A stretch of DNA of 17,783 bases from contig JASLKH010000013.1 of NCBI GenBank assembly GCA_030747675.1, positions 1 through 17,783 on the forward strand, written 5' to 3'. This stretch comes from Candidatus Thalassarchaeaceae archaeon. GTDB taxonomy: Archaea; Thermoplasmatota; Poseidoniia; Poseidoniales; Thalassarchaeaceae. This document shows, in pieces, positions 1 to 6,591 of the stretch. The first letter of the stretch is position 1, and each line of letters opens with the position of its first letter. A program made the translations under genes and the position numbers. The notes beneath the pieces were generated by a model. The model made no database searches. It was not told where the DNA came from and saw only the letters and a list, made by a program, of their open reading frames with translations.

Positions 1-2
1 AA

Positions 3-1172
3 CTAACATTCGCAGATGGAACTACATTGTCTGATGGTTACTATGGCCTTGGACCGTTGAAAGCAGTTGCCATTGGTAGCGTTGTTGGTATTTTAATCGG
101 CCTGGCTACTGAATACTATACGGGTATTGAGCCCGTATTCGGTGTACCAGTGAAGGCAATCCCATACATTGGTGAAGCAAGTAAGACAGGTAGTGCAACA
201 AATGCAATTGCAGGTCTTGCAGTTGGTATGCAATCGGTGTTCATACCTGTAGTATTGATGTGTGTGGGAATTTATGTTGCTAATGATGTAAGTGGCCTAT
301 ATGGAATTGCAATGGCAGCAATGGGAATGCTTGCAACAGTCGGAGTTACAATGACAGTCGATGCATATGGACCGGTTGTAGACAACGCAGGTGGAATTGC
401 TGAAATGAGTGGATTAGGAGATGATGTTCGTGAAATTACAGACGAATTGGATTCGATTGGAAACACAACAGCAGCGATTGGAAAAGGATTCGCAATTGGT
501 TCAGCAGCATTGACAGCCCTCGCTCTTTTCGCTGCATTCCGATCCAGCACTGATGACGCTCTAGCAGAAGCAGGAGATCCGTTACTTGACCTTTCACTAA
601 CCAACCCACTAGTTGTAATTGGTTTGCTCATTGGTGGCGCTCTACCATTTGTAGTGGCAGCCATGACAATGAAGTCAGTAGGGAAAGCTGCTGAGGATAT
701 GATTACCGAAATCCGTCGCCAATTCAAAGAAATTGATGGCTTACTTGAAGGAAAAGAGGGTGTTGAACCAGATAGTGCAACATGTGTTGACATTTCCACA
801 CAAGCAGCCCTTAGGGAAATGGTTGCCCCAGGAGTTGTAGCAGTATCCAGTCCACTGATTGTTGGGATGCTACTAGGTAGCTCCGCACTTGGTGGTTTAC
901 TTGCTGGTGCAACTGTAACTGGTGTTCTAATGGCATTATTCATGGCAAACGCTGGTGGTGCTTGGGACAATGCAAAGAAAGCAATTGAGCAAGGACATAT
1001 CCCTGGTGCTGAAAAGGGTGATGAAGCCCACGGTGCCGCAGTTGTTGGAGACACGATTGGTGACCCATTCAAGGATACAAGCGGCCCATCTTTGAATATT
1101 CTAATCAAATTGATGAGTATTGTCAGCCTTGTTATCGCTACTCTTGTAGTAAAACATGGCGGAATACTTTGA
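3..1172 (+). CDS. hppA: Membrane-integral pyrophosphatase (Na+/H+-translocating, K+-dependent signature), 5'-truncated by window edge
   Basis: The frame is open from position 3 (LTFADGTT...), so the track's TTG at 27 is internal. It contains the mPPase motifs [44 protein letters not shown] and [23 protein letters not shown], plus many hydrophobic helices. Confidence 0.97.
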
Positions 1173-1181
1173 GAAGTATTC
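1162..1181. repeat. Inverted repeat GAATACTT-TGAG-AAGTATTC with the hppA stop codon in the loop
   Basis: Perfect 8-bp arms at 1162-1169 and 1174-1181; TGA at 1170-1172 lies in the 4-nt loop. The sequence is certain, the function is unknown. Confidence 0.5.
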
Positions 1182-1197
1182 AAGAGAAGAATGTGTC

Positions 1198-1216
1198 AGC
1201 GCGCATCATGCGCGCT
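1198..1216. repeat. Perfect palindrome AGCGCGCAT-C-ATGCGCGCT overlapping the probable start codon of the lipoprotein gene
   Basis: 9-bp arms at 1198-1206 and 1208-1216 with a 1-nt centre; ATG at 1208 begins the right arm. Confidence 0.5.
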
Positions 1217-2164
1217 CAAATGCTGGTGTTCCTATTTTTGGGCGCTAGCCTTGCAGGTTGCTTGGGTTCAACAGGTTCTGGCTCAGGATCTGAGGATACC
1301 TCTGACTTATCACAACCAGCAAATTGGTCTGTAGGACAGTGGTGGTTGTACACTTTCTCTACACCTGAATGGGAGGATGACTCTGCCCGATTGGTTGTTA
1401 CTGAAACAGATGCAGAAGAAGGCACTGCATACATGTTGGGAATTACAAGTCAACGTGAAGCACGTCGACATGCCGTATTGAATCACAACCCTTTCCTCGG
1501 TAGAATTACACATGATAATTTATCTGCATATGAGAATGGTGCACCACAATCAGTACTACAATTTCCATTAGTTAAAGGTGCAAGCTGGTCGTTTACACTA
1601 TTTGCTCAAGAATGGACTACCATAGTGACTAATGCCATGGATGGAGTTGCTACACTTGAGGCGAGTACAACAGATGGCCAATCTCTGGATTATGTGTACA
1701 GTGGTTCAATGGGCTTCTTCAGTGATTTAGTCTGGACAAGCTCAGAAAATCAAGTATTATTACAAATGACTGCAGTCACTACTGGGTTGGATTACAAAGG
1801 CAATGTATGGTTCGTACAAGCCGGAGACATATTTTCAAAAGAATGGGACAACAACGGTGGGCCAGACGCTGAAATTGAGGATTCATTCTTTGTTTCAGGA
1901 CACCCTAGTGCAGGAGATTATGATGAAATGATTTACTGGCTCGATGCTGCAATGGGAACTGGGTCCACAGGAAGTCTAACTTTACGAGATCATTTTTCCA
2001 CTTCCGCATTGACTCGTCAATGGGGTTCAGGTGCTGAAGAAAATGGGAATTTAGGTACTATCCCCTATCCAAGTGGAGAATATACTCTGACTATTACTCA
2101 AACTGGAGATTCATATATTCGATTTTTCGTAGCAGGTGGCATCACAACAACTTGGACTTTATGA
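1208..2164 (+). CDS. Putative lipoprotein of unknown function (beta-rich, secreted)
   Basis: Short basic N-terminus, a hydrophobic stretch, a lipobox-like SLAGCLG and then a Ser/Gly linker (GSTGSGSGSE). The body is Trp/Tyr/Thr-rich with no further TM helix. ATG 1208 is preferred over the track's TTG 1169; ATG 1220 is also possible. Confidence 0.8.
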   Translation: MRAQMLVFLFLGASLAGCLGSTGSGSGSEDTSDLSQPANWSVGQWWLYTFSTPEWEDDSARLVVTETDAEEGTAYMLGITSQREARRHAVLNHNPFLGRITHDNLSAYENGAPQSVLQFPLVKGASWSFTLFAQEWTTIVTNAMDGVATLEASTTDGQSLDYVYSGSMGFFSDLVWTSSENQVLLQMTAVTTGLDYKGNVWFVQAGDIFSKEWDNNGGPDAEIEDSFFVSGHPSAGDYDEMIYWLDAAMGTGSTGSLTLRDHFSTSALTRQWGSGAEENGNLGTIPYPSGEYTLTITQTGDSYIRFFVAGGITTTWTL

Positions 2165-2173
2165 GTTGATTTG

Positions 2174-2752
2174 ATGGGCACGTTAGTCATGCTCCATGGC
2201 CTTACAGGTACAGCAGATTTGATTCGTCCTTTTGCAGAATCAATTTGCCCAAAAGGGTGGCATTTGTGCCTCCCTGAAGGGCCATTCAAACACCCAAAGC
2301 GAGGTTTTGGTTGGTGGATTCGAGATGCCCCTCCATCGACCCCTCTTGATACGAAAACGTCTGAGCAAGTGGACAAAAGTATTGCTTATCTTGAACAAAT
2401 AATTCCGGATGGCCCATTAATTGTAGGAGGGTTTTCGCAAGGAAGTGCCCTCGCTCAAGAATTACTAGCAACGTCATTAAATCAACGAATTATTGGTGTC
2501 ATAGTCATTGCTGGAAAAACAGCTAGACCTCTTGAACAAAGATTGATGCTTGCAAACATCCCTCCTTGTCGCTTGCTATCGATGCATGGTGAAAGTGATG
2601 AGATGGTCCCGCTATGGCAAGGTGACCAAACAGTCGAGATCCATCAAGAGGCAGGATGGGATGTATCCCTCTTACGTCATCAAAAAGGGCACATGGTTAA
2701 TTTGAAACAACTTCCCGAAATAATTGAATGGGTTTCAAAGACTATTGGATGA
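2174..2752 (+). CDS. Alpha/beta-hydrolase, phospholipase/carboxylesterase family
   Basis: MLHG oxyanion motif, GFSQG nucleophile elbow, MHGESDEMVP (catalytic Asp) and KGHMV (catalytic His); about 192 aa. Confidence 0.9.
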   Translation: MGTLVMLHGLTGTADLIRPFAESICPKGWHLCLPEGPFKHPKRGFGWWIRDAPPSTPLDTKTSEQVDKSIAYLEQIIPDGPLIVGGFSQGSALAQELLATSLNQRIIGVIVIAGKTARPLEQRLMLANIPPCRLLSMHGESDEMVPLWQGDQTVEIHQEAGWDVSLLRHQKGHMVNLKQLPEIIEWVSKTIG

Positions 2753-2791
2753 TTACCAGCCTTCAAGAAGGTCAATCATTTGGGCACATAC

Positions 2792-3061
2792 ATGAGCGCC
2801 CGCGTCAATTCAATATTGGCAAGAGCAAGAACTGATTTCGTGATGTTTGTTACGAATGTCTGTCCTTATTGCCACAAAGCGAAACGTTTGCTAGATAGTC
2901 AAAATATGTCTTGGTCGGATTTTAATGTGCAGAAAGACAGGTCTCTCCAAATGGAAGTTGTCGCAATGACTGGTCATCGCACAGTCCCAGTTATCTTCGA
3001 CACCCGAGATGATACACCCGTTTTTGTTGGTGGTTCAGATCATCTTGAAGATTATCTCTAA
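2792..3061 (+). CDS. Dithiol glutaredoxin
   Basis: CPYC active site, TVP cis-Pro motif and FVGGSD motif; 89 aa from ATG 2792. Confidence 0.93.
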   Translation: MSARVNSILARARTDFVMFVTNVCPYCHKAKRLLDSQNMSWSDFNVQKDRSLQMEVVAMTGHRTVPVIFDTRDDTPVFVGGSDHLEDYL

Positions 3062-5695
3062 TCAATTCACCTCAACACCCTCGCCAAGAACACGACGGGT
3101 TTCATCTGGGTCGATGAATAAAACTGCGAGAATGATTAATGATTCAAAGACCGCTGCTAAAAGTAATAGTGTTGCATAATCAAATCGACTTGCGAATAAA
3201 TCAGTCAATGAATACCCGATGACTGCAGATAGATTCATCATAGCCATGTACGCAGTGAATTGAGTGCCACCAACTTCACTCCATGTAATTTTCATCATCA
3301 TTGAAAATATGTTGATTGAGACAATTCCCCATACAAATGCTCGGATAGACCAGATTGTCACGAGGTATGTTGCATTATTCCACCATGCTTCGGTCAATCC
3401 CCAGATGACCGTCATCATGGTTCCAATCAAAGCCGCGTAGATGATGATTGATTTCCCACCAAATTGTTTTCCTAATTGGCCACCTACAATGTACCCAATC
3501 ATTGTGATGATCAATATTAATCCTCCCTTCGTAGCATTGAATTTCTCTGGAGACCAATCTAATTCTTTAAGGAAAAGAAGGGGTAAAACTGGTACTATGA
3601 AGTATGAGAGTGAGAGTGCCAAACTTAGCACAATTCCAAGGCGGGTTGAACGTAATGAAAATGCAGTAAGTACATTCGAAATAATCTCCTTGAAATCACG
3701 TTTTTCTTCTACATTGGAATTAAATTCAATTTCACAATCTTTCTGCCATGGAAACCGCTTTTCTCCAGGACGTTCAGTCATGAATAAAGGCACCATCATA
3801 ATTAGAAGAAGTATTGGAATTTGAAGTAAAACCGCACCTTTTATGCCCACAGATCCAATAATCGAGCCTAGTCCAGCACCACCAATCATTGCCCCGATAA
3901 TTTTGGAACTGAACATGTAACTGTTGACTTTTTCAAATTCATGCACTTTGAGAACATCGACTGCCAATGCATCAGTACTGACATCTTGCAGTGATGTGAA
4001 TATGTTGTATATGAGGAATATCAGGGCAATAGTATTGAAGTTCCCAGATGGGTTTGGAACAAATAAAATCAAGGATAGTGTTAGAATCATCCCAATTTCT
4101 GCAATTAGAATCCAAGGGCGTCGCCGACCCATTTTCCTATATTGGAATCGATCAATCACTGGCCCCCAGAGGAATTTGAAGGTCCAAGGTAACGTACCCA
4201 ATAGGAGTAATGTAGCAATAGAGCCTGCACCTAAACCTTCAGCTGCAAGGTACGTGACAAAAGTGACTGTAATGAATCCCCAAGGGAGTCCTTGTGCCAC
4301 GTATAGTGCACAGAGAGTGAGCACTCTTGCCCGATAACTTTCTGTTAGAGTATTGGATTTACCTCCCTCCTCATTAGTGTGGTCCTCTCCCTCAACCTCT
4401 TCTGCATCTATAATAAAACCCATTTGGAAATCATCACGGCGTAATGAGATGAATCCTACCAAGCAGAACATTGCTATTATCCATGGGATGAATATACCAA
4501 TTGCTAAACTTCCACCTCCAACTGCGAAGCTACCCTCTCCCTCATTTTCAGTACTCTCACTCCCATTTGTGTTCCAATCCCACCAAGCCATGGTGGCAAT
4601 GATATCTAGACCAGTTTGGAGGCCAGATTCAACATTGAGCCTTCCTCCTGCGAGGGAATTGATTGTAGTGACAGAATCGGTTTGAGCATGCTTTGGTGTT
4701 TGTTCACAAGTATCTCCTTCTTCCAAAATATACTGGTGCTGACCACGTAGCCAAGTTGCTGTATGGCCACCCATTATGAAATTGAAATGATCAGAATTCC
4801 CTTTCGTATCGTCAATAACTTTGACCCATTCTTCTGGATGGCTTAAATTGGTATTAATTTCTTTCAAGTATGCTTGAAACCATTCGGCCCGGTGTTGCAT
4901 TTCTTCTGTAACATCAAGCCCTTCATTCTCATAGTATGACCAATCGTCAACAGGCGATGTAAATTCGTATAGTGTCCAATAGTCCTCATCACAACCAGTG
5001 GCTTGACTTGCTAATGGTGTAGGTACTGGCCAGTTGAGTGCAAACATGTCAAGATTGACGTATGTGACATTCGTTCCATTTGGAATATGATTTTCTACAA
5101 AATGTAAACTACCTTTCCCTCCCCCTTCAGAAGAAGAAGATCCTTGCCATTCTTCGTAGTCCCACCATGCTAACTTCCAGGTGTGTAAAGGTGTACCATT
5201 CCAATTTGAGATTGTTTCAGCAAGTTCCAGTAATGAACCACTCCCTGTCCCATCATCGTAGGCACCCGAACTAGAACATCCAGCATATGTCTGCCCAATT
5301 AATGGTGGCGGAGAATAGCATATGGCATCATGATGTGAACCGAGGACATACCACGAGTCATCTAATGTCCCATTTATTGTTACGACAATATTTTCACAAT
5401 TATCACATTCGGATGTAGAAAATGGTTGCCTCTCAACATCATACCCCATCGCTTCAAGTTCCTCTGCAATCCAATTTCGTGCATTTACATTTGCTTGAGT
5501 ATCTATTTTTCGATAACCAAATTGTGTCATTGAGACCATATTGTCGTAAGCGGAACTTCCTTCTGGCCAGTCAGGAGGACTTTCTTGCATCACTTCAATT
5601 TCAGCACCAGCGGGTGATAATGGAGTTAGAGCTAGCATGAGCAGGGTGAGAATCACCAACACTCCGCCTCTGCCCATAGGCAGAGGCAAATCCAT
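3062..5695 (-). CDS. Fusion protein: signal peptide + M28-family metallopeptidase + TM linker + AmpG-like MFS transporter
   Basis: One uninterrupted ORF. N-terminal signal peptide (GRGGVLVILTLLMLALTPLSPAGA). M28 metal-ligand motifs GSHHD, GAYDDGTG, DYEE, NLDM, SDHFNF and a late His (KHAQTD). One TM helix at about 4444-4508, then an acidic linker. From about 4335 there are AmpG/MFS motifs LYVAQGLPWGF, LPWTFKFLWGPVIDRF, GRRRPWI, QDVSTDALAVD and GTQFTAYMAMMNL. Start is ATG 5695 or 5677. Confidence 0.9.
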   Translation of the reverse strand: MDLPLPMGRGGVLVILTLLMLALTPLSPAGAEIEVMQESPPDWPEGSSAYDNMVSMTQFGYRKIDTQANVNARNWIAEELEAMGYDVERQPFSTSECDNCENIVVTINGTLDDSWYVLGSHHDAICYSPPPLIGQTYAGCSSSGAYDDGTGSGSLLELAETISNWNGTPLHTWKLAWWDYEEWQGSSSSEGGGKGSLHFVENHIPNGTNVTYVNLDMFALNWPVPTPLASQATGCDEDYWTLYEFTSPVDDWSYYENEGLDVTEEMQHRAEWFQAYLKEINTNLSHPEEWVKVIDDTKGNSDHFNFIMGGHTATWLRGQHQYILEEGDTCEQTPKHAQTDSVTTINSLAGGRLNVESGLQTGLDIIATMAWWDWNTNGSESTENEGEGSFAVGGGSLAIGIFIPWIIAMFCLVGFISLRRDDFQMGFIIDAEEVEGEDHTNEEGGKSNTLTESYRARVLTLCALYVAQGLPWGFITVTFVTYLAAEGLGAGSIATLLLLGTLPWTFKFLWGPVIDRFQYRKMGRRRPWILIAEIGMILTLSLILFVPNPSGNFNTIALIFLIYNIFTSLQDVSTDALAVDVLKVHEFEKVNSYMFSSKIIGAMIGGAGLGSIIGSVGIKGAVLLQIPILLLIMMVPLFMTERPGEKRFPWQKDCEIEFNSNVEEKRDFKEIISNVLTAFSLRSTRLGIVLSLALSLSYFIVPVLPLLFLKELDWSPEKFNATKGGLILIITMIGYIVGGQLGKQFGGKSIIIYAALIGTMMTVIWGLTEAWWNNATYLVTIWSIRAFVWGIVSINIFSMMMKITWSEVGGTQFTAYMAMMNLSAVIGYSLTDLFASRFDYATLLLLAAVFESLIILAVLFIDPDETRRVLGEGVEVN

Positions 5696-5748
5696 CTTTG
5701 TCAAGAGGCTTCGCCTTGGCAGAAATGATTAGGTTTGTACCAAACCGG

Positions 5749-6591
5749 ATGTCAATGGCGAATTGGGACGTACCCGAATTTAGGACAAAGCCAGCCCTTT
5801 CTGGTGCTGAACTTCGTGATGAAATGGAGCAACCAATTAATGCCTCAATAGCAGCATGGTGGCTGACTCAAGCCTCTTGGATGATACGTTTTAGGGACGG
5901 TCCACTAATCCTTATTGATCCATGGTGGCGGGACCTGTATGCTGGTGATATGTGGGGTAAATTACTTGGTGAATTCCCACTTGAACCCGAAGAACATCCT
6001 GAACCCGATTTGATATTGTGCACACATTGGCATGATGACCACATATGTCCCGTAAGCATTCCTCGGCTTGCTAAAGCATTCCCTAATGTAAAATTCGTAG
6101 TCCCAAATCGTTCAGTCGATTTACTGTTAAATTGGGAAATCCCGTTGTCAAGAATAGTTACAATGAAAGGGTCTGATTCAGTAGATATAGGAGACATTAA
6201 AGTGCATGCAATTCCTGCAGCACACGAGGATTTGGACATCACTGAAGATGGTGCTTGGTACCTTGGTTATACAATTTCATTTGGGTCTAAAACAGTGCTT
6301 CACATGGGTGACAGTCGCCCGTATCCTGGATGGCATGAATCTTTCAAAAAAGCTTCACCAAATGGTTTCGATTTAGTATTTGCATGCATCAATGGTAATG
6401 ACAACCTCCGGCATGATGAAGCGGTAGATCTAGCACTTGCATTGAACCCTACCCTCATTGTACCCATGCACTATGGTATGGACCCTGGTAATACCGTTGA
6501 CCCTCAAATATTCGTGGATGACATTGAACTGAGAGCCCCCAATCAATCCTATCGTGTACCAACAGTTGGAGAAATATTCTCAATCAATTAA
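5749..6591 (+). CDS. Metallo-beta-lactamase-fold hydrolase, UlaG (L-ascorbate-6-P lactonase)-like
   Basis: WWL...LIDPW, THWHDDH (HxHxDH), AAH, LHMGDS and IVPMHY. The pattern 'LLLNWEIPLSRIVTM' resembles UlaG-like proteins. Start is uncertain (5725, 5749 or 5755); divergent from the M28-MFS gene. Confidence 0.85.
   Translation: MSMANWDVPEFRTKPALSGAELRDEMEQPINASIAAWWLTQASWMIRFRDGPLILIDPWWRDLYAGDMWGKLLGEFPLEPEEHPEPDLILCTHWHDDHICPVSIPRLAKAFPNVKFVVPNRSVDLLLNWEIPLSRIVTMKGSDSVDIGDIKVHAIPAAHEDLDITEDGAWYLGYTISFGSKTVLHMGDSRPYPGWHESFKKASPNGFDLVFACINGNDNLRHDEAVDLALALNPTLIVPMHYGMDPGNTVDPQIFVDDIELRAPNQSYRVPTVGEIFSIN

What the first reader, a model, noticed from the sequence alone, without database searches (positions are those of the whole stretch)
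3062..5695. Secreted M28 peptidase fused to an AmpG-like MFS transporter in a single polypeptide
Seen: signal peptide, complete M28 metal-ligand set with several Cys pairs (consistent with an extracellular location), one TM helix, an acidic linker, then a full MFS domain. The extra helix is exactly what is needed to put the peptidase outside and the MFS N-terminus inside, which argues for a genuine fusion. Established: AmpG-family MFS proteins import muropeptides, and related RhtX/FptX proteins import siderophores; M28 enzymes are amino/carboxypeptidases. Inference: a 'cut-and-import' device that trims peptides or glycopeptides at the cell surface and passes the product to its own permease. 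It may also supply the neighbouring sugar locus, from which it is divergently transcribed.
Basis: partly seen in the sequence, partly recalled or inferred. Interest (0 to 1): 0.8.

Follow-up and report, generated by a model that had tools for sequence, protein, structure and literature searches.

The report
Surface aminopeptidase fused to membrane permease
An uncultured Marine Group II ocean archaeon really does make one protein that joins an outward-facing zinc aminopeptidase to an AmpG-like membrane transporter, an apparently undescribed design; but relatives swap the outer "head" freely, so it is not yet clear that cutting and uptake are coupled.

Summary
Window 3062-5695 (-) is one uninterrupted 877-aa ORF with these parts:
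- signal peptide
- M28 di-zinc aminopeptidase domain, all ligands invariant
- acidic stalk
- one extra helix (TM0)
- acidic cytoplasmic linker
- 12-TM AmpG/PAT-like MFS

Independent metagenome contigs cross the junction without indels. At least 56 protein clusters from Marine Group II (Poseidoniales) MAGs carry the same fusion.

The "cut-and-import" reading is only partly supported.

For it:
- The same MFS clade is also fused to an S8 subtilase.
- A distant PAT-like paralogue is fused to M28, or sits directly downstream of an M60 peptidase gene.
- AmpG's proton-coupling residues are conserved.

Against it:
- Same-genus genomes carry M28 in the very same slot with only a single-helix anchor, and no match to the MFS part was found in them.
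- Nearly identical MFS modules carry a blue-copper domain or an unknown head instead.
- No MFS column tracks the head type.
- The stalk is flexible.

The link to the sugar island follows the M28 slot, not the transporter.

This scan had already noted the same M28-MFS, S8-MFS and cupredoxin-MFS fusions on other DNA. I found no paper describing them.

New here are the same-slot allele exchange, the repeated head swapping, and the M60/MFS gene pair.

The parts
3062..5695 (-). Whole CDS, 877 aa: signal peptide + M28 + stalk + TM0 + linker + MFS. Stop codon at 3062-3064, directly abutting the stop of the convergent glutaredoxin gene (3059-3061).
5603..5695 (-). Sec-type signal peptide, res 1-31 (MDLPLPMGRGG-VLVILTLLMLAL-TPLSPAGA|E). 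No Cys, so not a lipobox.
   Evidence: read from the sequence; no dedicated predictor was run
4571..5578 (-). M28 di-zinc aminopeptidase ectodomain, res 40-375. Very acidic (59 D/E against 13 K/R over res 30-397). Six invariant Cys. Conserved N-x-S/T sequons at N108, N209 and N283.
5327..5335 (-). H121-H122-D123. H121 corresponds to AAP His97 (Zn ligand) and D123 to AAP Asp99.
5255..5257 (-). D147, corresponding to AAP Asp117 (the bridging Zn ligand), in YDDGTG.
5150..5155 (-). E181-E182, corresponding to AAP Glu151 (general base) and Glu152 (Zn ligand). The HMM alignment is off by one residue at an adjacent 8-residue gap.
5048..5050 (-). D216 in NLDM, the expected equivalent of AAP Asp179. 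Assigned by motif only; no alignment to a solved M28 structure covers it.
   Evidence: the Pfam match of homologue P0092 reaches profile position 174
4787..4789 (-). H303 in SDHFNF, the expected equivalent of AAP His256. Assigned by motif only.
4505..4570 (-). Acidic Gly/Ser-rich stalk, res 376-397. Low pLDDT and variable in sequence, except for the x(V/A)GxGx(I/L)S motif just before TM0. That motif is shared with the cupredoxin- and UNK1-headed proteins.
4442..4504 (-). TM0, res 398-418, the extra thirteenth helix (N-out, C-in). It belongs to the MFS module. It aligns with the TM0 of proteins carrying other heads, not with the anchor helix of stand-alone M28.
4337..4441 (-). Cytoplasmic linker, res 419-453. 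It starts with RRDD (positive-inside), then turns acidic. Disordered in the model.
3116..4336 (-). 12-TM MFS domain of AmpG/PAT type, res 454-860.
4112..4186 (-). AmpG-type extended motif A, res 504-528 (WTFKFLWGPVIDRFQYRKMGRRRPW). K507 = Lys62, W510 = Trp65, P512 = Pro67, D515 = Asp70, R525/R526 = Arg79/80, W528 = Trp83.
3971..3985 (-). TM4 pair D571 and D575, corresponding to the AmpG Asp125/Asp129 carboxyl pair. Invariant in 38 fusions. AmpG Lys132 is Ala578 here.
5696..5748 (.). 53-bp divergent intergenic region between the fusion gene and the MBL-fold gene (start at 5749). Its only A/T-rich element, GAAATGATTAGG, lies at about 5722-5733, roughly 26 nt from both start codons. A shared TATA-like element with leaderless transcripts is my inference only.
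   Evidence: inference

Best explanation
Shown here:
- This is a genuine single gene of a Marine Group II archaeon (Poseidoniales). Its product is a 13-helix membrane protein.
- A Sec signal peptide takes the N-terminus out.
- A complete, disulfide-rich M28 di-zinc aminopeptidase of the AAP/SGAP type sits on the outer face.
- About 22 residues of flexible acidic stalk tether it to helix TM0, which crosses inward.
- An acidic cytoplasmic linker leads into a 12-TM AmpG/PAT-like MFS.
- That MFS keeps AmpG's extended motif A, Lys62 and the TM4 Asp-Asp pair.
- The module 'stalk motif + TM0 + linker + MFS' is a conserved cassette of Poseidoniales. It carries exchangeable outer heads: M28, S8 subtilase, a blue-copper domain, or an unknown roughly 200-aa domain.
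- In this genome the M28 head comes from a core ecto-peptidase gene. Elsewhere, including in the same genus and the same chromosomal slot, that gene carries only a single-helix anchor.

Inferred:
- The MFS is a proton-coupled importer.
- Tethering the aminopeptidase beside it raises the local concentration of hydrolysis products (amino acids, trimmed peptides or glycopeptides). They are then captured before they diffuse into seawater.
- The coupling would be by proximity, not by a fixed peptidase-to-pore channel.
- It is facultative, not a co-adapted machine.
For: Architecture and topology.

M28 identity:
- A profile search hits V. proteolyticus aminopeptidase 1AMP/1RTQ at E 2e-14, with H121, D123, D147 and E181/182 aligned to its ligands.
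- The AF2 model of res 1-420 has pLDDT 82. Its Foldseek top hits are AAP and SGAP at E about 1e-16 and TMt 0.75.

MFS identity:
- The best solved relative by sequence and by fold is AmpG: 9j9z at E 2e-11; 8zgz at E 1.6e-11; 8zke at TMt 0.84.
- The AmpG functional residues named in PMC11568325 map to invariant K507, W510, P512, D515, R525/526, W528, D571 and D575.

The fusion is real and conserved:
- 56 clusters at 54-86% identity.
- It is present in two families of the order.
- Contigs from other studies bridge the junction.

Peptidase-MFS association recurs:
- S8-MFS fusions, including one in the same chromosomal slot.
- M28 fused to a second, distant PAT-like MFS.
- An M60 peptidase gene 44-85 nt upstream of that MFS in 7 genomes of 2 genera.

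Published context:
- A. baumannii AmpG1 docks the lytic transglycosylase Slt to couple cutting with import (PMC13507758).
- MGII are described as proteolytic and dependent on external amino acids, with extracellular M28 and S8 peptidases (PMC6461757, PMC6864105, PMC6336850).
Against: - In the same genus, G049 and G071 carry the M28 gene in the identical slot with only a C-terminal single-TM anchor. G039, G147 and G105 also show only an anchor-length M28 ORF (415-450 aa). None of the five has any further match of the full-length query at E<=1e-20, so no MFS-A match was found. Some of these assemblies are incomplete (81-93%).
- The anchored form is the commonest: at least 119 clusters against 56 fused.
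- MFS modules 65-72% identical to this one carry a bona fide type-1 copper domain or an unknown head. Head types are interleaved in the MFS tree, and M28 heads need at least 3 changes.
- None of 488 stalk+TM0+MFS columns separates M28-headed from other-headed modules, so there is no sign of co-adaptation.
- The stalk is flexible and variable, so no defined geometry is expected.
- AmpG's sugar-contact residues Tyr152 and Lys132 are replaced by K598 and A578, and TM13/14 are absent, so the substrate is unknown.
- An M28 aminopeptidase releases single amino acids, which are an odd cargo for an AmpG-like cavity (established knowledge plus inference).
- Transport direction is not established.
- The only sign of transcription is one 214-nt metatranscriptome contig.
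Confidence: 0.5

Rival explanations
1. Anchor or platform reading. The TM0-MFS cassette has its own function, independent of the head and with an unknown substrate. Ectoproteins that need to stay on the cell (M28, S8, cupredoxin, the unknown head) are simply grafted onto it as a membrane tether. Peptidase and permease share a polypeptide but not a substrate.
For: - Heads are swapped repeatedly on near-identical MFS modules.
- A redox protein with intact type-1 Cu ligands (H..C..H..M) is among the heads.
- No MFS column tracks the head type, and 188 of 488 columns are at least 95% conserved across all heads.
- Anchor-only M28 occupies the same slot in the same genus, with no MFS-A match found.
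- The stalk is flexible.
Against: - A single helix is enough to anchor M28, as in P0122, so a 12-TM tether is costly without some benefit.
- Peptidases of three unrelated families (M28, S8, M60) are linked to PAT-like MFS proteins by fusion or adjacency.
- More distant members of the MFS family are fused to glycoside hydrolases.
- An AmpG relative is known to dock a cutting enzyme (PMC13507758).
Confidence: 0.35
2. Glycopeptide feeder for the neighbouring sugar island. The fusion trims and imports glycopeptides, whose glycans are then degraded by the cytoplasmic GH38, the GH67-like enzyme and the sugar kinases encoded next door.
For: - The order HPPase-unk-Grx-[M28 gene]-MBL-GHMP-GH67-like-... 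is kept in both families.
- AmpG's natural cargo is a glycopeptide (PMC11568325).
- M60-like peptidases, found beside the paralogous MFS, are known as glycoprotein-directed enzymes (my own knowledge).
- The window encodes no other transporter.
Against: - The same neighbourhood is kept in genomes whose M28 gene has no MFS, and in which no MFS-A match was found.
- Cupredoxin- and UNK1-headed MFS genes lie among housekeeping genes.
- AmpG's sugar-binding Tyr152 and Lys132 are not conserved.
Confidence: 0.1
3. The N-terminal domain is not an aminopeptidase. It would be an M28-fold glutaminyl cyclase, or a non-catalytic binding domain.
For: Bacterial M28-fold glutaminyl cyclases score almost as well as aminopeptidases in the fold search (6qql TMt 0.78; 7d1e).
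Against: All five metal ligands of the co-catalytic site, plus the general base, are invariant. Glutaminyl cyclases are mono-zinc and lack part of this set (established knowledge, not tested here).
Confidence: 0.04
4. Assembly or gene-calling artefact: two adjacent genes merged by a chimeric contig or a sequencing error.
For: The genome is a 78%-complete MAG in 100 contigs.
Against: - The same uninterrupted ORF occurs in at least 56 protein clusters from many assemblies.
- Contigs from other studies cross 4335-4580 with 0 indels.
- The TM0/linker sequence is conserved.
Confidence: 0.01

Closest known systems
AmpG anhydromuropeptide permease (E. coli / P. aeruginosa; PAT family; PDB 9c3f, 8zgz, 8zke, 9j9z)
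   Same: - It is the best solved relative of the MFS part by both sequence and fold.
- The extended motif A is shared (Lys62, Trp65, Pro67, Asp70, Arg79/80, Trp83).
- The TM4 Asp125/Asp129 pair is shared.
   Different: - Identity is only about 18%, and the TIGR00901 score is 114 against a cut-off of 350.
- Tyr152 and Lys132 are not conserved.
- There is no TM13/14 vestibule; instead there is an N-terminal TM0 and an ectodomain.
- The host is an archaeon, and I know of no murein in this group, so muropeptide recycling is not the role (inference).
A. baumannii AmpG1 with its periplasmic domain that binds the lytic transglycosylase Slt (PMC13507758)
   Same: An AmpG-family permease is physically coupled to an extracytoplasmic cutting enzyme, so that products are imported where they are made.
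   Different: - There the coupling is non-covalent docking and has been tested experimentally. Here it is a covalent fusion and untested.
- The enzyme class (peptidase against glycan lyase) and the substrate both differ.
Vibrio/Aeromonas proteolyticus aminopeptidase (AAP, 1AMP) and Streptomyces griseus aminopeptidase (SGAP, 1CP7), M28 family
   Same: Same fold (TMt about 0.75) and the same co-catalytic ligand set.
   Different: - Those enzymes are soluble and secreted.
- Here identity is about 19-20%, with an 8-residue insert after the EE motif and a long insert between D216 and H303.
- Here the enzyme is tethered to the membrane.
P. aeruginosa AaaA, an M28 arginine aminopeptidase held at the cell surface by an autotransporter barrel (PMC3426542; PDB 9oqa)
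   Same: An M28 aminopeptidase is kept on the cell surface by a covalently attached membrane domain. It appears among the fold hits.
   Different: The tether there is an outer-membrane beta-barrel with no solute-import function. It is bacterial.
ERMP1/Fxna and fungal relatives: M28 domain plus nine TM helices (PMC11120530)
   Same: An M28 domain and a polytopic membrane domain share one chain.
   Different: - It is a eukaryotic ER protein.
- Its membrane part is not reported to be an MFS; I did not compare it here.
- Its function is also unknown.
Stand-alone membrane-anchored M28 of Poseidoniales (e.g. P0122), listed in MGII surveys as extracellular M28D/E/F peptidases
   Same: The ectodomain is the same orthologous one (68-79% identity) in the same chromosomal slot.
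   Different: It has a single C-terminal helix and a basic tail instead of TM0 + linker + MFS.

Membership tests
Peptidase family M28 (co-catalytic di-zinc exopeptidases) | Match to the family model above the curated cut-off | tested here: met
   PF04389 scores 59.4 bits against a cut-off of 21.3, but covers only profile positions 1-105. In homologue P0092 the match reaches positions 1-174.
Peptidase family M28 (co-catalytic di-zinc exopeptidases) | Metal ligands His, Asp (bridging), Glu, Asp, His, plus the general-base Glu and the HxD Asp | tested here: met
   H121, D123, D147, E181, E182, D216 and H303 are invariant in 38 fusions. The first five align to AAP His97, Asp99, Asp117 and Glu151/152, with a one-residue offset at a gap. 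D216 and H303 are assigned by the NLDM and SDHxxF motifs only.
Peptidase family M28 (co-catalytic di-zinc exopeptidases) | Alpha/beta aminopeptidase fold | tested here: met
   AF2 gives pLDDT 82 and pTM 0.79. Foldseek's top hits are AAP and SGAP at E about 1e-16 and TMt 0.74-0.76.
Peptidase family M28 (co-catalytic di-zinc exopeptidases) | Aminopeptidase activity and two bound Zn ions | not testable with these tools
   Needs purified ectodomain, metal analysis and aminoacyl-pNA/AMC assays.
Major facilitator superfamily | 12-TM two-bundle fold with motif A between TM2 and TM3 | tested here: met
   MFS_1 at E 3e-27. The model shows 12 helices at 454-859 with pLDDT 80-95. The motif GPVIDR...GRRRPW is invariant. 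All the top fold hits are MFS proteins.
AmpG family muropeptide transporter (TIGR00901; PAT family) | Score above the curated family cut-off | tested here: not met
   113.9 bits against a cut-off of 350. The equivalog models PRK11902 and PRK11010 score 60 and 45 bits against 656 and 756.
AmpG family muropeptide transporter (TIGR00901; PAT family) | AmpG-specific extended motif A (Lys62, Trp65, Pro67, Asp70, Arg79/80, Trp83) and the TM4 Asp125/Asp129 pair | tested here: met
   K507, W510, P512, D515, R525/526, W528, D571 and D575. All are invariant or nearly so in the fusions.
AmpG family muropeptide transporter (TIGR00901; PAT family) | Disaccharide-binding residues Tyr152 and Lys132, and the TM13/TM14 hydrophobic vestibule | tested here: not met
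   They align to K598 and A578 (read against PMC11568325). The alignment is at low identity, so this is tentative. The model has no helices after TM12.
AmpG family muropeptide transporter (TIGR00901; PAT family) | Import of GlcNAc-anhMurNAc(-peptides) for murein recycling | not testable with these tools
I did not search the genome for murein-recycling genes. The host is archaeal.
RhtX/FptX siderophore transporters (TIGR02718) | Score above the curated cut-off | tested here: not met
   107.5 bits against a cut-off of 356.

The most novel reading that the evidence does not exclude
Poseidoniales (Marine Groups II and III) possess a previously undescribed class of modular 13-TM permeases. A conserved 'stalk-TM0-linker-MFS' cassette acts as a docking platform onto which different surface enzymes (M28, S8, blue-copper and unknown heads) are exchanged by recombination, sometimes within one chromosomal slot. 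The peptidase-headed versions would work as true digest-and-capture devices, helping these abundant planktonic heterotrophs harvest amino acids or (glyco)peptides from dilute seawater.
Probability: 0.3. Interest if true: 0.8.

Novelty: new variant of a known kind. Interest (0 to 1): 0.62.

Why it matters
Marine Group II archaea are among the most abundant heterotrophs of the surface ocean. They are uncultured and are thought to live on proteins and peptides.

A free-living cell in dilute water loses most of the products of its external enzymes by diffusion. A peptidase covalently tied to a permease would be a simple, genetically encoded answer to that problem. It is also directly testable in a heterologous host.

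Even if cutting and transport prove to be uncoupled, two findings stand:
- One permease cassette carries interchangeable outer heads.
- A core ecto-peptidase alternates between a one-helix anchor and a 13-helix transporter at the same locus.

Both are unusual examples of domain shuffling in membrane proteins. They give a handle on a large, unstudied branch of the AmpG/PAT family in organisms that, as far as I know, have no murein.

Tried and rejected
- Assembly artefact: rejected.
- Search for the fusion outside Poseidoniales. At 50% clustering, only one cluster (P0021) among 1.84 billion representatives is a listed full-length M28+MFS match. So I found none outside this lineage, though only the best 150 of 4473 hits are listed.
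- Literature: seven full-text searches found no description of the M28-MFS fusion. The MGII papers I read mention extracellular M28 peptidases but not an MFS fusion.
- First full-length AF2 model. The M28 part was patchy (pLDDT 69, pTM 0.55), and no coordinates or PAE were available to me. The peptidase-to-pore geometry therefore could not be assessed.
- Head-specific signature in the MFS: none found.
- Gene neighbourhoods of cupredoxin- and UNK1-headed MFS genes were uninformative housekeeping genes.
- The unknown 'UNK1' head has no Pfam hit. Only 11 short proteins, probably fragments, carry it alone.
- Expression: only one 214-nt contig (4671-4884) in one metatranscriptome. That is too little to claim transcription of the whole fusion.
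- Hydropathy scan alone: it found only some of the MFS helices, so helix counts come from the AF2 model.
- One call failed on wrong frame or coordinates, and so did another. Neither has any bearing on the results.
Full report
OBSERVATION

The window is contig 13 of a 1.68-Mb, 78%-complete MAG. Names attached to close homologues place it in Marine Group II: Candidatus Poseidoniales, Thalassarchaeaceae, 'Euryarchaeota archaeon'.

On the minus strand, 3062-5695 is one open frame of 877 codons starting at an ATG. Pfam finds Peptidase_M28 at residues 102-260 (E 5e-16) and MFS_1 at 462-827 (E 3e-27). NCBIfam's best models are AmpG (TIGR00901, 114 bits) and RhtX/FptX (107 bits). Both are far below their curated cut-offs of about 350 bits.

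ANATOMY

Read from the sequence and from two AlphaFold models:

| Part | Residues | Notes |
|---|---|---|
| Signal peptide | 1-31 | ...TPLSPAGA\|E |
| M28 ectodomain | ~40-375 | very acidic |
| Stalk | 376-397 | Gly/Ser/Glu-rich, low confidence |
| TM0 | 398-418 | followed by RRDD |
| Cytoplasmic linker | 419-453 | acidic, disordered |
| MFS | 454-859 | twelve helices |
| Tail | 861-877 | short |

That gives 13 TM helices with the N-terminus outside. This is what is needed to place the peptidase outside and the MFS N-terminus inside.

The positive-inside pattern agrees with this topology. It rests on RRDD after TM0, GRRR in loop 2-3, a K/R-rich central loop, and GKQFGGK in loop 8-9. Conserved N-x-S/T sequons lie in the ectodomain (N108, N209, N283) and in the predicted outer loop 7-8 (N720). 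This is weakly consistent with the same topology.

THE PEPTIDASE

In 38 full-length homologues, H121, D123, D147, E181, E182, D216 and H303 are invariant, as are six ectodomain cysteines.

A profile of the domain hits the Vibrio/Aeromonas proteolyticus aminopeptidase (1AMP/1RTQ) at E 2e-14. The alignment places:
- H121 on His97;
- D123 on Asp99;
- D147 on the bridging Asp117;
- E181/E182 on Glu151/152, with a one-residue offset next to an 8-residue insert.

D216 (NLDM) and H303 (SDHFNF) are assigned by motif only.

A domain-only model (pLDDT 82, pTM 0.79) matches AAP and the S. griseus aminopeptidase best, at E about 1e-16 and TMt about 0.75. M28-fold glutaminyl cyclases, LapA and the surface-tethered AaaA follow. 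With the full co-catalytic set intact, an aminopeptidase is much more likely than a mono-zinc cyclase.

THE PERMEASE

By sequence, the closest solved proteins are AmpG (9j9z, 8zbb, 9c3f, 8zgz), then the acetyl-CoA transporter SLC33A1 and MFSD2A. By fold, AmpG is again first, with 8zgz at E 1.6e-11 and 8zke at TMt 0.84.

I used the HMMER alignment and the residue roles given for E. coli AmpG in PMC11568325. The AmpG-specific extended motif A is fully present:
- K507 = Lys62
- W510 = Trp65
- P512 = Pro67
- D515 = Asp70
- R525/R526 = Arg79/80
- W528 = Trp83

The TM4 carboxyl pair is also present (D571 = Asp125, D575 = Asp129). All of these are invariant or nearly so in the fusions.

The disaccharide contacts differ. 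Lys132 aligns to A578 and Tyr152 to K598, and AmpG's TM13/TM14 are absent. I therefore read the domain as a working, probably proton-coupled, PAT/AmpG-like permease with a substrate other than muropeptide. It does not pass the curated AmpG family threshold.

IS THE FUSION REAL?

- Fifty-six protein clusters at 54-86% identity have the same architecture.
- In a sample of 201 species-level genomes of the order, single ORFs covering both domains occur in four genera: G000 and G155 (the window's genus g1); G100, G132, G116 and G072 (g17); G152 (g16); G128 and G070 (g20). These genera span two families.
- Contigs from other studies' seawater metagenomes cross the junction without any indel. X4 has 1957 nt over 3531-5487. 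X3 has 9878 nt over the whole gene, though that one could be related to the source sample. X7 covers 4391-4690.
- A metatranscriptome holds one 214-nt contig inside the M28 part. That is too little to claim more.
- At 50% clustering of 1.84 billion representatives, only one listed cluster is a full-length M28+MFS match. I therefore found the fusion only in this lineage.

WHAT THE RELATIVES ADD

(a) The commonest form of this M28 ectodomain is stand-alone. It has a signal peptide, the M28 domain, one C-terminal helix and a basic tail. It runs to about 410-440 aa, shares 68-79% identity, and accounts for at least 119 clusters.

(b) Synteny is striking. The order H+-PPase - unknown - (alpha/beta hydrolase) - glutaredoxin - [M28 gene] - MBL-fold - GHMP kinase - GH67-like - ... 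is conserved. The slot is filled differently in different genomes:

| Genome | Group | Occupant of the slot |
|---|---|---|
| window, G155 | genus g1 | fused gene |
| G049, G071 | genus g1 | anchor-only gene |
| G128, G070 | the other family | fused gene |
| G199, G041 | genus g10 | M28 fused to a different membrane domain; only the MBL gene beside it lay within the fetched flank |
| G193 | genus g9 | an S8 subtilase-MFS fusion |

The anchor-only genomes of the window's genus gave no other match at E<=1e-20, so no MFS-A match was found in them. They are 81-93% complete.

(c) The MFS module travels with other heads. These are a plastocyanin-type domain with intact type-1 copper ligands (45 clusters), an unknown roughly 200-aa domain, 'UNK1' (13 clusters), and S8 subtilases of 1176-1289 aa that extend to Marine Group III.

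(d) A junction alignment shows where the similarity between differently headed proteins begins. It starts at a short stalk motif, x(V/A)GxGx(I/L)S, and runs through TM0, R-x-D-x-F-Q-L and the acidic linker into TM1. The anchor helix of stand-alone M28 does not align with TM0. TM0 therefore belongs to the permease cassette, not to the peptidase.

(e) In an IQ-TREE (quick mode) of the MFS domain, all head-bearing modules form one clade (SH-aLRT 99), apart from the roughly 430-aa stand-alone MFS proteins. Inside that clade the head types are interleaved. Well-supported branches force at least 3 changes for M28 heads, at least 2 for cupredoxin and at least 3 for UNK1. In the M28 tree, anchored and fused forms are likewise interleaved, on uniformly short branches. 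These are quick trees with SH-aLRT support only, and rooting is not established.

(f) I tested for co-adaptation. In 112 modules (55 M28-, 45 cupredoxin- and 12 UNK1-headed; 488 columns), no column separates M28-headed from other-headed proteins at 90%/90%. 188 columns are at least 95% conserved across all heads.

(g) A second membrane domain, 'MFS-B', is only remotely related: 25% identity over TM1-3 including the motif-A block, E 5e-7. It has a weak Acatn hit. In genus g10 it is fused to the same M28 ectodomain. In the window's own genome and six others (genera g1 and g2) it lies 44-85 nt downstream of a Peptidase_M60 gene on the same strand.

(h) More distant members of the MFS family carry C-terminal glycoside-hydrolase-type domains: 3-keto-disaccharide hydrolase, and an MGH1-like GH with an F5/8 type C domain.

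MECHANISM

Shown:
- a real, conserved, outward-facing M28 aminopeptidase is covalently tethered through a flexible stalk and TM0 to an AmpG-like MFS that keeps AmpG's coupling residues;
- the cassette is modular.

Inferred: the peptidase-headed versions let the cell capture hydrolysis products next to the site of release.

I give the proximity-coupling reading about 0.5. Points in its favour:
- Three unrelated peptidase families (M28, S8, M60) are linked to PAT-like MFS proteins by fusion or adjacency.
- The published A. baumannii AmpG1-Slt example shows that the AmpG family can couple an outside cutter to import (PMC13507758).
- MGII are described as proteolytic and dependent on external amino acids (PMC6461757).
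- Surveys list extracellular M28 and S8 peptidases in MGII (PMC6864105 and PMC6336850).

I give the rival 'platform/anchor' reading about 0.35. Points in its favour:
- heads are swapped, and a redox protein is among them;
- there is no head-specific signature in the MFS;
- the anchor-only allele sits in the same slot;
- the stalk is flexible.

A rigid peptidase-to-pore channel is unlikely. I could not examine inter-domain confidence, because neither PAE nor coordinates were available.

The idea that the fusion supplies the adjacent sugar island gets little support. The adjacency belongs to the M28 slot and persists without the MFS. The island itself was studied in earlier notes of this scan.

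COMPARISON AND NOVELTY

- The parts are members of known superfamilies. M28 membership was tested and met. MFS membership was met.
- AmpG family proper: the curated threshold and the sugar-binding features are not met, while the extended motif A is met.
- The nearest functional analogies are AmpG1-Slt (non-covalent), AaaA (M28 on an autotransporter barrel; PMC3426542) and ERMP1/Fxna (M28 plus nine TM helices; PMC11120530).
- I found no paper describing an M28-MFS, S8-MFS or cupredoxin-MFS fusion. IMG's automatic name for one S8 form, 'subtilisin family serine protease/MFS family permease', shows that pipelines see both halves.
- The scan itself had already reported the same M28-MFS fusion on other DNA (e1-3589826, e1-1497203). 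It had also reported S8-MFS (e1-2798658, e1-3324282, e1-4778171, e1-2800217, e1-963727) and cupredoxin-MFS (e1-4611587). I reached the same architecture independently.

VERDICT

- Observation: confirmed.
- Interpretation: partly supported.
- Novelty: a new variant (domain architecture) of known kinds.
- Interest: about 0.6. The design is unusual and testable in a globally abundant uncultured group. Its proposed function, however, rests on association and is weakened by the modularity data.

Noticed in passing
Own genome contig C79 (L004/L028): 2-865 (+) and 907-2904 (+): A Peptidase_M60 (enhancin-like, HELGH) gene is followed 42 nt later by a head-less, distant PAT-like 12-TM protein ('MFS-B'). 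That protein carries an extra C-terminal helix and a roughly 200-aa extension. The pair is conserved in 7 genomes of 2 genera. In genus g10 the same MFS-B is fused to the M28 ectodomain.
   Followed up: partly
L020 (G193:C22) 2771-6502 (+): A 1243-aa protein: signal peptide + S8 subtilase + TM0 + AmpG-like MFS, with a large insert in the central loop. It occupies the same chromosomal slot (GHMP kinase ... glutaredoxin - unknown - H+-PPase) as the window's M28-MFS gene.
   Followed up: partly
P0073/P0124 and loci L022-L025: A plastocyanin-type domain with intact type-1 copper ligands is fused to an MFS module 65-72% identical to the window's. The neighbours in L024 are KaiC-like ATPases, a UbiE-type methyltransferase and V-ATPase subunit I. 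No explanation for a redox head on a permease.
   Followed up: partly
P0062/P0106/P0123 and loci L026-L027: An unknown roughly 200-aa Cys-containing head ('UNK1') with no Pfam hit. It is found almost only fused to the same MFS cassette. Its fold was not determined.
   Followed up: partly
P0164 (840 aa) and P0192 (1367 aa), representatives: More distant members of the same MFS family carry C-terminal domains: 3-keto-disaccharide hydrolase, or an MGH1-like glycoside hydrolase + GH65C + F5/8 type C domains. Hydrolase-permease fusions therefore recur in this branch of the MFS outside the archaeal clade. Their taxa are unknown.
   Followed up: no
window 3059-3064: The stop codons of the convergent glutaredoxin gene (TAA, 3059-3061, + strand) and of the fusion gene (TGA, 3062-3064, - strand) abut with no intergenic base. 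There is no room for a terminator between them.
   Followed up: no
window 5696-5748: Only 53 bp separate the divergent start codons of the fusion gene and the MBL-fold gene. A single A/T-rich element (about 5722-5733) lies roughly 26 nt from both. This suggests leaderless transcripts from a shared or overlapping promoter (inference).
   Followed up: no
Own genome C21:7046-7900 (-) and C26:12267-12719 (+) (L002, L003): Two further, distant M28-like ORFs (25-34% identity to the window's M28 domain) in the same genome. Not characterised.
   Followed up: no
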